DNA of 64,000 nt from the NCBI RefSeq assembly GCF_057098645.1, contig NZ_CM169472.1; one strand, written 5' to 3'. The position numbers were made by a program. Below are positions 42,001 through 45,000 of this stretch, one piece after another. How positions within the stretch are numbered: the stretch's first letter is position 1; every line of letters starts with the position of its first letter.

Positions 42001-45000
42001 TCGGTGGCCCAACCGGCGAGCACAACAGCCCGCGCTCAAAGAGCTTCTTTGATGGTGTGAAGAAGTTTTTTGACGACCTGACCCGCTAACCTCCCCAAAA
42101 GCCTGCCCGTAGGCAGGCCTGGGTAAAAATAGGGTGCGTTGAAGATATGCGAGCACCTGTAAAGTGGCGGGGATCACTCCCCGCCGTTGCTCTTACTCGG
42201 ATTCGTAAGCCGTGAAAACAGCAACCTCCGTCTGGCCAGTTCGGATGTGAACCTCACAGAGGTCTTTTCTCGTTACCAGCGCCGCCACTACGGCGGTGAT
42301 ACAGATGACGATCAGGGCGACAATCATCGCCTTATGCTGCTTCATTGCTCTCTTCTCCTTGACCTTACGGTCAGTAAGAGGCACTCTACATGTGTTCAGC
42401 ATATAGGGGGCCTCGGGTTGATAGTAAAATATCACTCGGGGCTTTTCTCTATCTGCCGTTCAGCTAATGCTTGAGACAGATAGCCTCAAGCACCCGCCGC
42501 TATTATATCGCTCTCTTTAACCCATTCTTTTATCGATTCTAATCCGGAAGACGCCTCGCATTTTTATGGCGTAATTTTTTAATGATTTAATTATTTAACT
42601 TTAATTTATCTCTTCATCGCAATTATTGACGACAAGCTGGATTATTTTTGAAATATTGGCCTAACAAACATCGCCGACTGACAACAAATTAATTATTACT
42701 TTTCCTAATTAATCCCTCAGAAATCCTCACCTTAAGCTATGATTATCAGGGCTTAGGGTCACTCGTGAACGCTTACAGCCGTCAAAAACGCATCTCACCG
42801 CTGATGGCGCAAATTCTTCAATGGCTCGTAAAAAACGAATTATTCCTACACTATAATCTGATTTTAACGATGATTCGTGCGGGGTAAAATAGTAAAAACG
42901 ATCTATTCACCTGAAAGAGAAATAAAAAGTGAAACATCTGCATCGATTCTTTAGCAGTGATGCCTCGGGAGGCATTATTCTTATCATTGCCGCTATCCTG
43001 GCGATGATGATGGCCAACAGCGGCGCAACCAGTGGATGGTATCACGACTTTCTGGAGACGCCGGTTCAGCTCCGGGTTGGTTCACTCGAAATCAACAAAA
43101 ACATGCTGTTATGGATAAATGACGCGCTGATGGCGGTATTTTTCCTGTTAGTCGGTCTGGAAGTTAAACGTGAACTGATGCAAGGATCGCTAGCCAGCTT
43201 ACGCCAGGCCGCATTTCCAGTTATCGCCGCTATTGGTGGGATGATTGTGCCGGCATTACTCTATCTGGCCTTTAACTATGCCGATCCGATTACCCGCGAA
43301 GGGTGGGCGATCCCGGCGGCTACTGACATTGCCTTTGCACTTGGTGTGCTGGCGCTATTGGGAAGTCGTGTTCCGTTAGCGCTGAAGATCTTTTTGATGG
43401 CTCTGGCTATTATCGACGATCTTGGGGCCATCATTATCATCGCATTGTTCTACACTAATGACTTATCGATGGCCTCTCTTGGCGTCGCGGCTGTAGCAAT
43501 TGCGGTACTCGCGGTATTGAATCTGTGTGGTGTACGCCGCACGGGCGTCTATATTCTGGTTGGCGTAGTGTTGTGGACTGCAGTGTTGAAATCGGGGGTT
43601 CACGCAACCCTGGCGGGGGTAATTGTCGGCTTCTTTATTCCTTTGAAAGAGAAGCATGGGCGTTCTCCAGCGAAGCGACTGGAGCATGTGTTGCACCCGT
43701 GGGTGGCGTATCTGATTTTACCACTGTTTGCATTTGCTAATGCTGGCGTTTCACTGCAAGGCGTCACGCTGGATGGCTTGACCTCCATTCTGCCATTGGG
43801 GATCATCGCTGGCTTGCTGATTGGCAAACCGCTGGGGATTAGTCTGTTCTGCTGGTTGGCGCTGCGTTTGAAACTGGCGCATCTGCCTGAGGGAACGACT
43901 TATCAGCAAATTATGGCTGTGGGGATCCTGTGCGGTATCGGTTTTACTATGTCTATCTTTATTGCCAGCCTGGCCTTTGGTAGCGTAGATCCAGAACTGA
44001 TTAACTGGGCGAAACTCGGCATCCTGGTCGGTTCTATCTCTTCGGCGGTAATTGGATACAGCTGGTTACGCGTTCGTTTGCGTCCATCAGTTTGACAGGA
44101 CGGTTTACCGGGGAGCCATAAACGGCTCCCTTTTCATTGTTATCAGGGAGAGAAATGAGCATGTCTCATATCAATTACAACCACTTGTATTACTTCTGGC
44201 ATGTTTATAAAGAAGGTTCTGTGGTTGGCGCAGCGGAGGCGCTTTATTTAACACCACAAACCATTACCGGACAGATTCGGGCGCTGGAAGAGCGCCTGCA
44301 AGGCAAATTATTTAAGCGCAAGGGACGTGGTCTCGAGCCCAGCGAGCTGGGGGAGCTGGTCTATCGCTATGCCGATAAAATGTTCACCTTGAGCCAGGAA
44401 ATGCTGGATATCGTGAACTATCGCAAAGAATCCAATTTATTGTTTGACGTTGGCGTGGCTGATGCACTTTCCAAACGTCTGGTCAGTAGCGTGCTGAATG
44501 CTGCAGTAGTAGAAGGCGAGCCAATTCATCTTCGCTGCTTCGAATCCACCCACGAAATGCTGCTGGAGCAATTAAGCCAGCATAAACTGGATATGATCAT
44601 TTCCGACTGTCCGATAGATTCTACGCAGCAGGAAGGCCTGTTCTCCGTGAGAATTGGCGAATGTGGCGTGAGTTTCTGGTGTACAAATCCACCGCCGGAA
44701 AAACCGTTCCCAGCTTGTCTGGAAGAACGGCGGCTTTTGATTCCTGGGCGACGTTCAATGTTAGGGCGCAAATTGCTTAACTGGTTTAACTCCCAGGGAT
44801 TAAACGTAGAAATCCTTGGCGAGTTTGATGATGCCGCTTTGATGAAAGCTTTTGGTGCGATGCACAATGCAATCTTCGTTGCCCCAACGCTTTATGCATA
44901 TGACTTTTATGCCGATAAAACTGTCGTAGAAATTGGTCGCGTCGAGAATGTGATGGAAGAGTACCATGCTATTTTTGCTGAGCGGATGATTCAGCACCCG

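What the first reader, a model, noticed from the sequence alone, without database searches (positions are those of the whole stretch)
42193..42448. hokC / mokC / sokC type I toxin-antitoxin locus appears uninterrupted
The hokC (50 aa) and overlapping mokC (69 aa) frames are complete, and the predicted sokC antisense region lies directly across the mokC start. Because the K-12 IS186 is absent here, the locus sits in what is probably its native, potentially functional context.
Basis: partly seen in the sequence, partly recalled or inferred. Interest (0 to 1): 0.3.

Follow-up and report, generated by a model that had tools for sequence, protein, structure and literature searches.

The report
Intact hokC toxin–antitoxin locus
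This is the well-known E. coli hokC/mokC/sokC small-toxin and antisense-RNA locus in its ordinary form without the insertion element seen in strain K-12; most E. coli carry that form and it was described in 1999.

Summary
On the minus strand between dnaJ and nhaA lie hokC (42345..42193, 50 aa), in-frame mokC (42402..42193, 69 aa) and, on the plus strand, sokC (42394-42452) crossing the mokC start. Pfam HOK_GEF scores 1.8e-24 and Rfam RF01794 scores 122 bits.

The K-12 IS186 is absent. In K-12 it sits in the loop of the GC hairpin 42166-42185. That cuts the mRNA off from its fold-back element (fbi, 42132-42144) and its terminator (42097-42118).

From 42193 to 42407 the window is identical to K-12. 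Folding of the 399-nt and 330-nt mRNAs reproduces the classical R1 hok switch, and 28 related loci support it by covariation.

The finding is ordinary:
- About 70% of 5,426 complete E. coli genomes are uninterrupted at this site.
- An IS-free hokC locus (ECOR24) was characterised in 1999 and reportedly did not mediate post-segregational killing.

Points beyond the finding:
- A private 2-bp deletion lies at -32/-33 of the hokC promoter.
- The whole unit is much more conserved across Escherichia species than dnaJ synonymous sites.
- IS186 occurs at the same hairpin in both orientations.

Novelty: already known. Interest: low.

The parts
42097..42495 (-). Inferred full-length hokC (mokC-hokC) mRNA, 399 nt
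   Evidence: The 5' end is set by the start of the Rfam RF01794 match and lies 7 nt after a TATAAT box. The 3' end is the terminator U-tract. MFE is -170.3 kcal/mol, z = -7.8 against shuffles. The ends are inferred, not mapped.
42502..42507 (-). hokC promoter -10 box, TATAAT (perfect consensus); no recognisable -35
   Evidence: Read. It aligns with the R1 hok -10 box TATGAT, whose mutations abolish hok transcription (PMC9841398). The consensus scan did not flag it because the -35 is poor.
42527..42528 (.). Site of a private 2-bp deletion (all other genomes have TG between these two bases on the + strand); -32/-33 of the hokC promoter
   Evidence: None of 5,426 complete genomes matches 42496-42565 at 99% or better; the best is 97.2%. 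The effect is unknown and a sequencing error is not excluded.
42484..42495 (-). tac (translational activator element), mRNA nt 1-12, GGGUGCUUGAGG
   Evidence: It pairs with fbi in the full-length fold and with ucb in the truncated fold. It is invariant in 28 hokC-like loci.
42438..42444 (-). ucb (upstream complementary box / anti-SD), mRNA nt 52-58, AAGCCCC
   Evidence: It pairs with the mokC SD region in the full-length fold and with tac in the truncated fold. The tac-ucb helix is 100% paired in 28 loci.
42411..42414 (-). mokC Shine-Dalgarno GAGG, 8 nt upstream of the mokC AUG
   Evidence: Read from the sequence. It aligns with the R1 mok SD GAGG, which was validated by mutation in PMC9841398.
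42193..42402 (-). mokC ORF, 69 aa, in frame with hokC
   Evidence: Identical to K-12 mokC.
42378..42382 (-). dcb (downstream complementary box), GCCUC, mRNA nt 114-118
   Evidence: It pairs with the mokC SD in the 330-nt truncated fold. The SD-dcb helix has 7 pairs with changes on both sides across 28 loci.
42355..42358 (-). hokC Shine-Dalgarno GGAG, 9 nt before the AUG, as in R1
   Evidence: Alignment to R1. It is sequestered in a long-range helix in both folds.
42193..42345 (-). hokC toxin ORF, 50 aa
   Evidence: Pfam PF01848 HOK_GEF, E=1.8e-24. Nucleotide-identical to K-12 hokC.
42205..42207 (-). Tyr47 codon TAC inside a TACG motif (TadA A-to-I editing site, Tyr to Cys)
   Evidence: Read from the sequence. 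Editing of K-12 hokC at this aligned position (called position 46 in the papers) is reported at about 9% (PMC5630033, PMC12214031). Related loci encode Cys (TGC/TGT) in this column.
42166..42185 (-). 3' GC hairpin GGCGGGG-AGUGAU-CCCCGCC, the inferred 3' end of the processed mRNA; its loop is the IS186 target (target duplication = 42171-42180)
   Evidence: The helix is 95.9% paired in 28 loci. The equivalent R1 stem protects the truncated mRNA (PMC9841398).
42132..42144 (-). fbi (fold-back inhibition element), CUUCAACGCACCC, mRNA nt 352-364
   Evidence: It pairs with tac in the MFE and centroid folds. It covaries with tac across 40 hok loci. The helix is 96.4% paired.
42097..42118 (-). Intrinsic terminator: 7-bp core stem GCCUGCC/GGCAGGC (42101-42118; ViennaRNA extends it to 9 bp with flanking bases) plus UUUU (42097-42100), 8 nt from the convergent dnaJ stop codon
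   Evidence: With only 4 U it falls below the threshold of the terminator scan.
42394..42452 (+). sokC antisense RNA (55-59 nt): the 5' tail is complementary to the mokC start and target loop, followed by a terminator hairpin and a U-rich tail (CUUUUCUCU)
   Evidence: Transferred from the K-12 annotation b4413. There are 2 SNPs against K-12 at 42408 and 42423. Fold -23.6 kcal/mol, z = -5.6.
42359..42387 (+). Inferred sokC promoter: -35 TTGACC (42359-42364), 17-nt spacer, -10 CACTCT (42382-42387)
   Evidence: Aligned with the R1 sok promoter TTGCGC-17-TATCCT (the R1 boxes are from my own knowledge). Identical to K-12. Not flagged by the consensus scan. Relatives have TAATCT at the -10.

Best explanation
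This is the chromosomal hokC (gef)/mokC/sokC type I toxin-antitoxin locus of E. coli in its ancestral form without IS186. It keeps every cis element of the hok/sok family.

Most likely mechanism, inferred by homology to R1 hok/sok:
1. A roughly 399-nt mRNA is made from a promoter that relies mainly on its -10 box.
2. Its 5' end (tac) pairs with the 3' fbi element. This closed form hides the mokC SD against ucb, so neither ribosomes nor SokC can act.
3. Slow 3' trimming back to the GC hairpin (about 330 nt) removes fbi. tac then pairs with ucb, and the mokC SD moves into a hairpin with dcb whose loop carries a YUNR motif (CUGA).
4. SokC RNA, which is normally abundant and unstable, binds there and the duplex is destroyed.
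5. If SokC is lacking, mokC is translated. That opens the hokC SD, and the 50-aa membrane toxin is made.

Shown here: the sequence elements, their continuity, the predicted alternative folds and covariation among relatives.
Inferred, not shown: transcription, processing, SokC action and toxicity in this strain.

The physiological output is probably low. It is not plasmid-type post-segregational killing.
For: - Pfam HOK_GEF 1.8e-24. Rfam RF01794 122 bits on the mRNA leader.
- The position matches K-12 hokC/mokC/sokC between dnaJ and nhaA.
- No difference from K-12 across 42193-42407. The five SNPs elsewhere fall in loops or turn G.U pairs into A-U pairs.
- IS186 is absent, and the hairpin, fbi and terminator are contiguous.
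- In the full-length fold (z = -7.0 and -7.8), tac nt 1-12 pairs with fbi nt 352-364 and the mokC SD pairs with ucb. In the 330-nt fold (z = -5.3), tac pairs with ucb and the SD pairs with dcb. This is the switch described for R1 (PMC9841398).
- Across 40 hok loci from many Enterobacterales, tac core GGUGC goes with GCACC 53-59 nt after the stop in 21/21 loci (0/21 have GCGCC). tac core GGCGC goes with GCGCC in 17/19 (0/19 have GCACC).
- On 28 hokC-like mRNAs the full-length structure is 85.4% paired, against 36-44% when partners are slid, with 35 pairs changed on both sides. The truncated structure is 86.3% paired, against 38-47%.
- SokC folds into a strong terminator hairpin (z = -5.6).
- SokC is seen in K-12 RNA-seq (PMC11228462).
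- HokC is toxic when over-expressed (bioRxiv 10.1101/2025.08.07.668861).
- The unit is 96-97% identical to E. albertii and to a divergent Escherichia lineage (deposited as E. coli SCPM-O-B-8794), against 80-83% at dnaJ four-fold sites.
Against: - Nothing was measured in this strain.
- The sigma-70 consensus scan flagged neither promoter. hokC has no recognisable -35. The sokC -10 is CACTCT, where relatives have TAATCT.
- The tac-fbi duplex energy alone is not better than shuffled 3' UTRs (176 of 2000 shuffles were as good).
- The tested structures were derived from the window's own fold, which favours them in the slide control.
- The tac/fbi classes coincide with two clades, so they represent few independent events.
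- A secondary account of Pedersen & Gerdes 1999 says IS-free ECOR24 hokC gave no post-segregational killing and no rifampicin activation.
- The 2-bp promoter deletion is private to this window and its effect is unknown.
Confidence: 0.85

Rival explanations
1. The locus is structurally intact but physiologically inert. It is a conserved-looking remnant whose toxin is never produced at effective levels, as was proposed for chromosomal hok loci in 1999.
For: - ECOR24 hokC (IS-free) reportedly did not mediate post-segregational killing and was not activated by rifampicin. The authors suggested chromosomal hok systems are inactive (as reported in bioRxiv 10.1101/2025.08.07.668861; also PMC5630033).
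- Both promoters are non-canonical.
- About 30% of genomes tolerate IS186 in the 3' hairpin.
- At least one strain has a stop at hokC codon 3 (L007).
Against: - The whole 392-nt unit, UTRs included, is far more conserved between Escherichia species than dnaJ four-fold sites (Fisher p = 8e-8 and 2e-9; UTRs alone 0.0016 and 1.5e-5).
- A CRISPRi screen reports a strong, nutrient-dependent fitness defect on sokC knock-down even in K-12 (bioRxiv 10.1101/2020.03.04.975888).
- hokC mRNA is transcribed and edited by TadA in K-12.
Confidence: 0.3
2. In this particular strain the hokC promoter is altered by the private 2-bp deletion at -32/-33. hokC transcription is therefore reduced or changed, and the locus is uninterrupted but not wild type.
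For: - The deletion is one of only five differences from O145 strain RM9872 in 19 kb.
- It is absent from all 5,426 complete genomes.
- It lies where a -35 hexamer would sit, given the 17-nt spacing from TATAAT.
Against: - No strain has a recognisable -35 here, and the region is not conserved among relatives.
- In R1 hok, promoter suppressor mutations were reported only in the -10 box (PMC9841398).
- One of five differences falling by chance in this roughly 430-bp locus has a probability of about 0.1.
- A sequencing or assembly error cannot be excluded.
Confidence: 0.12
3. The ORFs and the antisense match are a chance resemblance, not a real hok locus.
For: None found.
Against: - Pfam E = 1.8e-24 and Rfam E = 3.8e-29.
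- Nucleotide identity to the annotated K-12 genes.
- Present at this position in 5,425 of 5,426 genomes.
Confidence: 0.01

Closest known systems
hokC/sokC of E. coli ECOR24 (IS186-free allele; Pedersen & Gerdes 1999, Mol Microbiol 32:1090)
   Same: It is the same gene pair at the same locus without IS186. A transcript of about 330 nt is cited (PMC3562002), which matches the 330-nt processed form predicted here (42495..42166).
   Different: The ECOR24 sequence and the primary paper could not be obtained, so base-level identity is untested. The window also carries a private 2-bp deletion upstream of the -10 box.
hokC (gef)/mokC (orf69)/sokC (sof) of E. coli K-12 MG1655 (b4412, b0018, b4413)
   Same: Nucleotide-identical across mokC, hokC, the hokC SD, dcb and the sokC promoter (42193-42407). 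It has the same neighbours, dnaJ and nhaA.
   Different: K-12 has IS186A in the loop of the 3' hairpin, which removes the hairpin, fbi and terminator from the transcript. There are also five UTR SNPs (42111, 42408, 42423, 42471, 42481), plus a substitution and the 2-bp indel at 42527.
hok/mok/sok of plasmid R1 (parB)
   Same: It has the same order of elements: -10 box, tac, 5' hairpin, ucb, mok SD, mok AUG, dcb, hok SD, hok, GC hairpin, fbi, terminator. The antisense Sok gene lies across the mok start, and the full-length and truncated folds are equivalent.
   Different: The hokC locus is chromosomal and vertically inherited. Its tac/fbi belong to the GGGUGC/GCACCC class rather than GGCGC/GCGCC. 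mokC is in frame with hokC, whereas R1 mok is in the +1 frame. The sokC -10 is weaker (CACTCT against TATCCT). Post-segregational killing is reported for R1 but not for hokC.
hokB/sokB of E. coli
   Same: A chromosomal Hok-family type I toxin-antitoxin pair with TadA-dependent Tyr-to-Cys recoding of the toxin mRNA.
   Different: hokB is edited at codon 29 at a high level and is linked to Obg/(p)ppGpp persistence. hokC is edited at the C-terminal Tyr (TACG at 42204-42207) at about 9% in K-12, and no physiological role is established.

Membership tests
hok/sok (Hok/Gef) type I toxin-antitoxin family | Small (~50 aa) hydrophobic Hok/Gef toxin ORF | tested here: met
   PF01848 HOK_GEF, E=1.8e-24, 85.5 bits against a cut-off of 22; residues 6-47 cover the full 42-position profile.
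hok/sok (Hok/Gef) type I toxin-antitoxin family | Conserved structured 5' leader of the hok mRNA (Rfam RF01794) | tested here: met
   122.3 bits against a gathering score of 59, with all 157 model positions matched at 42495..42343 on the minus strand. The model ends on the hokC AUG, so it describes the sense leader and not the Sok strand.
hok/sok (Hok/Gef) type I toxin-antitoxin family | Overlapping upstream mok reading frame with its own SD, ending beyond the hok start | tested here: met
   mokC is 42402..42193 (69 aa), with GAGG 8 nt upstream. It is in frame with hokC, unlike R1. Translational coupling itself cannot be tested with these tools.
hok/sok (Hok/Gef) type I toxin-antitoxin family | cis-encoded antisense Sok RNA complementary to the mok translation initiation region, with its own terminator | tested here: met
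   Corresponds to annotated K-12 sokC b4413 with 2 SNPs. It covers the mokC AUG, SD and ucb. Terminator hairpin z = -5.6.
hok/sok (Hok/Gef) type I toxin-antitoxin family | Functional Sok promoter inside the mok/hok overlap region | tested here: inconclusive
   TTGACC-17-CACTCT is identical to K-12, where SokC is detected. The consensus scan does not flag it, and its -10 is weaker than in relatives.
hok/sok (Hok/Gef) type I toxin-antitoxin family | Long-range tac-fbi pairing that closes the full-length mRNA | tested here: met
   12 pairs (nt 1-12 with 352-364) in the MFE and centroid folds. Class covariation in 40 loci. Helix 96.4% paired, with one G-C/A-U compensatory pair. Caveat: the duplex energy alone is not significant.
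hok/sok (Hok/Gef) type I toxin-antitoxin family | Alternative pairings: ucb with the mok SD (closed form), and tac with ucb plus mok SD with dcb (open form) | tested here: met
   Both are predicted, in the 399-nt and 330-nt folds respectively. The ucb-SD helix has 4 pairs and the SD-dcb helix 7 pairs changed on both sides in 28 loci.
hok/sok (Hok/Gef) type I toxin-antitoxin family | GC-rich 3' stem-loop that ends and stabilises the processed mRNA | tested here: met
   Intact at 42166-42185. 95.9% paired across 28 loci. Its stabilising role is taken from R1 (PMC9841398).
hok/sok (Hok/Gef) type I toxin-antitoxin family | YUNR (U-turn) motif in the Sok target loop | tested here: met
   The loop CUGAACA of the SD-dcb hairpin begins with CUGA. 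The motif's role is from my own knowledge (Franch et al. 1999) and was not tested.
hok/sok (Hok/Gef) type I toxin-antitoxin family | 3' processing, RNase III cleavage of the duplex, killing on loss of Sok (post-segregational killing, rifampicin induction) | not testable with these tools
   No experiment was possible. A secondary report says ECOR24 hokC was negative for post-segregational killing and for rifampicin activation. A CRISPRi screen reports that sokC knock-down is deleterious in K-12.
IS186-disrupted hokC allele (K-12 type) | IS186 between the arms of the 3' hairpin, with GGATCACTCC duplicated | tested here: not met
   The window is contiguous across 42166-42185. It is in the class of 3,814 of 5,426 genomes with one match of at least 80% over 42085-42260.
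TadA-editable Hok toxins | Tyr encoded by TAC within TACG at the C-terminal Cys-equivalent position | tested here: met
   The Tyr47 codon TAC (42207..42205) is followed by G. The aligned column is TGC/TGT (Cys) in Pseudocitrobacter and Pantoea relatives. Editing itself cannot be tested here.

The most novel reading that the evidence does not exclude
Chromosomal hokC may not be a relic. It may be a selectively maintained, physiologically active toxin module of the genus Escherichia. Its coding region and RNA switch elements are held nearly constant across species. Its activity is repeatedly tuned or switched off in nature by IS186 landing in the 3' hairpin (found in both orientations; about 30% of genomes are split at that point) and perhaps by small promoter lesions such as the private 2-bp deletion seen here.
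Probability: 0.25. Interest if true: 0.4.

Novelty: already known. Interest (0 to 1): 0.12.

Why it matters
It matters little as a discovery. The locus, its IS-free form and its regulatory logic have been in the literature since 1989-1999.

It has two practical uses:
- It marks this strain, a close relative of O145 RM9872, as a natural background with an uninterrupted hokC unit. That is the right kind of strain for testing whether chromosomal hok loci do anything, a question still open between the negative post-segregational-killing data of 1999 and the CRISPRi phenotype of 2020.
- The side observations give cheap, testable handles on that question. These are the strong cross-species conservation of the UTRs, IS186 in both orientations at the hairpin, and the private promoter deletion.

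Tried and rejected
- **Promoter and terminator scan.** It flagged neither the hokC nor the sokC promoter, nor the hokC terminator. I therefore rest the promoters on homology and on published K-12 expression, not on the scan.
- **tac-fbi duplex energy against dinucleotide shuffles of the 3' UTR.** Not significant (176 of 2000). The K-12 tac finds an equally good partner inside IS186 (-17.9 against -18.3 kcal/mol). I dropped duplex energy as evidence and used position, covariation and whole-molecule folds instead.
- **Primary paper.** Pedersen & Gerdes 1999 is not held, so its results are cited second-hand.
- **Rfam 'sok' hit as evidence for the antisense gene.** Rejected. The match is on the hok-mRNA strand and ends at the hokC AUG.
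- **The 80-aa ORF from GTG 42435.** Rejected as a mechanical upstream extension with no SD.
- **First population alignment with a dnaJ-end anchor.** It failed for L006-L008, so I redid it with a different anchor.
- **Counting the two IS186 orientations by junction BLAST.** This gave overlapping counts because the inverted repeat plus flank already covers about 76% of each query. Only the existence of both orientations is claimed.
- **The genome contigs pattern scan.** About half of its 88 stretches were chance hits in unrelated phyla. I removed them by requiring a Hok-like ORF and a tac motif.
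Full report
**What is there.** Window 42097-42530 lies between dnaJ (ending at 42089, + strand) and nhaA (starting at 42929, + strand).
- The minus strand carries a 50-aa ORF (42345..42193) and a 69-aa ORF (42402..42193). They share one frame, so the longer is the shorter with 19 extra N-terminal residues.
- The 50-aa product matches Pfam HOK_GEF at E=1.8e-24.
- The region 42495..42343 (minus strand) matches Rfam RF01794 'sok' over all 157 model positions at 122 bits, against a gathering score of 59. It is the only such hit in the 64-kb window.
- That Rfam match is on the hok-mRNA strand and ends on the hokC AUG. It therefore identifies the mRNA leader and not the antisense RNA.
- The K-12 MG1655 record annotates dnaJ, IS186A, mokC, hokC, sokC and nhaA in this order. 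Transferring its coordinates places sokC at 42394-42452 on the + strand, with the mokC AUG opposite SokC nt 7-9.

**The insertion element.** In K-12, IS186A (1,345 bp) sits between duplicated GGATCACTCC copies.
- That sequence is window 42171-42180, the loop and 3' arm of the hairpin GGCGGGG-AGUGAU-CCCCGCC (42166-42185). The hairpin begins 7 nt after the hokC stop codon.
- The window is contiguous there.
- After removing the IS and one duplicate copy from K-12, the two sequences do not differ at all from 42193 to 42407. That stretch covers mokC, hokC, the hokC SD, dcb and the inferred sokC promoter.
- The other differences are five SNPs, plus a substitution and a 2-bp indel at 42527:
  - 42111 lies in the terminator loop.
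  - 42408 lies in the spacer between the mokC SD and the AUG.
  - 42423 turns a G.U pair into A-U in the SokC terminator stem.
  - 42481 turns a G.U pair into A-U in the 5' hairpin.
  - 42471 lies in an unpaired position.

**How ordinary the uninterrupted state is.**
- A 176-nt query across the insertion site (42085-42260) matches with at least 80% coverage in 3,814 of 5,426 complete E. coli genomes. In the interrupted genomes sampled, nearly all matches break at query position 97, which is window 42181.
- The IS-free arrangement next to dnaJ is also found in E. albertii and in two divergent Escherichia lineages, so it is ancestral.
- An IS186-free hokC locus from strain ECOR24 was described by Pedersen & Gerdes in 1999, with a transcript of about 330 nt (PMC3562002). 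I could not obtain the primary paper.

**Anatomy by comparison with R1 hok/sok.** I fetched an R1-type hok locus (L002) and aligned it. Every element has a counterpart, listed here in mRNA order:
- -10 box: TATAAT at 42507..42502, against TATGAT in R1.
- 5' end (tac): GGGUGCUUGAGG, against GGCGCUUGAGG in R1.
- 5' hairpin.
- ucb: AAGCCCC.
- mok SD: GAGG.
- mok AUG.
- dcb: GCCUC, within the conserved GCCUCUUAC.
- hok SD: GGAG, 9 nt before the AUG.
- The toxin ORF.
- GC hairpin.
- fbi: CUUCAACGCACCC at 42144..42132.
- Terminator: a 7-bp core stem GCCUGCC/GGCAGGC plus UUUU at 42118..42097. The ViennaRNA fold extends the stem to 9 bp with flanking bases. The U-tract ends 8 nt from the convergent dnaJ stop codon.

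The meanings of these elements are taken from PMC9841398.

**Folding.**
- The inferred 399-nt transcript folds to -170.3 kcal/mol (z = -7.8). tac nt 1-12 pairs with fbi nt 352-364, and the mokC SD pairs with ucb.
- The 330-nt form that ends at the GC hairpin folds differently (z = -5.3). tac pairs with ucb, and the mokC SD pairs with dcb in a hairpin whose loop CUGAACA begins with a YUNR motif.
- This is the closed-to-open switch described for R1.
- SokC folds into a single-stranded 5' tail of about 9 nt, complementary to that loop and to the mokC start, followed by a strong terminator hairpin (z = -5.6).

**Is the fold more than chance?**
- The tac-fbi duplex energy alone is not. 176 of 2000 shuffled 3' UTRs did as well, and the K-12 tac finds an equally good partner inside IS186.
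- I therefore collected relatives with one DNA-pattern scan of 100,044 species' genomes. I kept 38 loci with a Hok-like ORF and a tac motif, and added R1 and the window to make 40.
- All 21 loci with tac core GGUGC have GCACC 53-59 nt after the stop, and none has GCGCC. Of 19 loci with GGCGC, 17 have GCGCC at 58-65, and none has GCACC.
- On an alignment of 28 hokC-like mRNAs (A1), the full-length structure is 85.4% paired, against 36-44% when partners are slid. It has 35 pairs changed on both sides.
- The truncated structure is 86.3% paired, against 38-47%.
- There are three caveats. The structures came from the window's own fold. The two tac classes are two clades. The sequences are related.

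**Function.** All steps beyond sequence and predicted structure are inferred.

For activity:
- SokC is detected in K-12.
- hokC mRNA is transcribed and edited in K-12.
- HokC is toxic when over-expressed.
- A CRISPRi screen found sokC knock-down strongly deleterious in K-12, more so in poor media.
- The 392-nt unit is 96-97% identical between the window and E. albertii or a divergent Escherichia lineage, while dnaJ four-fold sites are only 80-83% identical. Fisher p is 8e-8 and 2e-9 for the whole unit, and 0.0016 and 1.5e-5 for the UTRs alone.

Against activity:
- ECOR24 hokC reportedly gave no post-segregational killing and no rifampicin activation.
- Both promoters are non-canonical.
- The sokC -10 is CACTCT, where relatives have TAATCT.
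- About 30% of genomes tolerate IS186 at the site.

**A private variant.**
- The window is almost identical to O145 strain RM9872. Over 19 kb there are 4 SNPs and one 2-bp deletion.
- That deletion lies at 42527/42528, which is -32/-33 of the hokC promoter.
- None of the 5,426 complete genomes shares it; the best match over 42496-42565 is 97.2%.
- No strain has a recognisable -35 there. In R1, only -10 box mutations were reported as promoter suppressors.
- The effect is therefore unknown, and an assembly error is not excluded.

**Verdict.** The thing is already known and common. 'Potentially functional' remains an open question that this sequence alone cannot settle.

Noticed in passing
window 42527-42528: A private 2-bp deletion relative to every one of 5,426 complete E. 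coli genomes, including the near-identical O145 strain RM9872. It lies at -32/-33 of the hokC promoter and is one of only five differences from RM9872 in 19 kb.
   Followed up: partly
window 42166-42185; L001, L010, L011: IS186/IS421 is inserted at exactly the same point of the hokC 3' hairpin, with the same GGATCACTCC duplication, but in opposite orientations in different strains (K-12 and strain 58-3 against MLI106K2). This points to independent hits on a G4-N6-C4 type hot spot. About 30% of complete genomes are split there.
   Followed up: partly
window 49046-50302: A 1,257-bp insertion relative to O145 RM9872 inside the fimbrial chaperone/usher cluster. Its size and overlapping 102-aa and 288-aa ORFs look like IS3 (identification from memory; no family search was run).
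   Followed up: partly
L007 (strain AVS0713), hokC codon 3; L003 (O157:H7), hokC codon 6: Natural hokC variants. CAG to TAG at codon 3 leads to annotation as a 44-aa Hok/Gef protein starting at Met7. O157:H7 HokC carries A6V.
   Followed up: no
L006, L007, L008 (upstream of hokC, toward nhaA): In some E. coli an ompK-sulfatase island lies beyond hokC where the window and K-12 have nhaA. Sequence similarity to the window drops sharply just upstream of the hokC -10 box. E. albertii shows the same drop there, but its genes were not examined.
   Followed up: no
window 42343-42495 (minus strand): Rfam RF01794, named 'sok antitoxin (CssrC)', matches the hok-mRNA sense strand and ends at the hokC AUG. 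A hit to it does not by itself locate the antisense RNA.
   Followed up: yes
L003-L012 annotations; window 42193-42345: RefSeq/PGAP labels the 50-aa hokC ORF 'mokC: type I toxin-antitoxin system toxin MokC'. This naming can mislead.
   Followed up: no
window 42375-42402; alignment A1 columns 126-141: Escherichia hokC lacks 1 nt that the related hokC-like loci compared here have (GUAGAGU-GCC against UUAGAUUAGCC). The same change puts mokC in frame with hokC, so MokC contains the whole toxin. It also replaces the relatives' sok -10 TAATCT with CACTCT.
   Followed up: partly
window 42204-42207; alignment A1 columns ~313-316: The hokC Tyr47 codon is TAC inside TACG, the TadA editing motif. Pseudocitrobacter and Pantoea relatives hard-code Cys (TGC/TGT) in the same column. 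This fits the published idea that the second cysteine is either edited in or encoded.
   Followed up: partly
window 42097-42118: The hairpin between the convergent dnaJ and hokC genes has a U-tract only on the hokC strand. On the dnaJ strand it is preceded by AAAA and followed by CCUGGGUAAAAAU. dnaKJ read-through antisense to the hokC 3' end therefore seems possible.
   Followed up: no
L012 (strain MLI104K2), between dnaJ and hokC: A different insertion of about 750 bp, annotated as a hypothetical protein, occupies the same hairpin region. Its junction contains an IS186 end followed by a C-rich tract.
   Followed up: no
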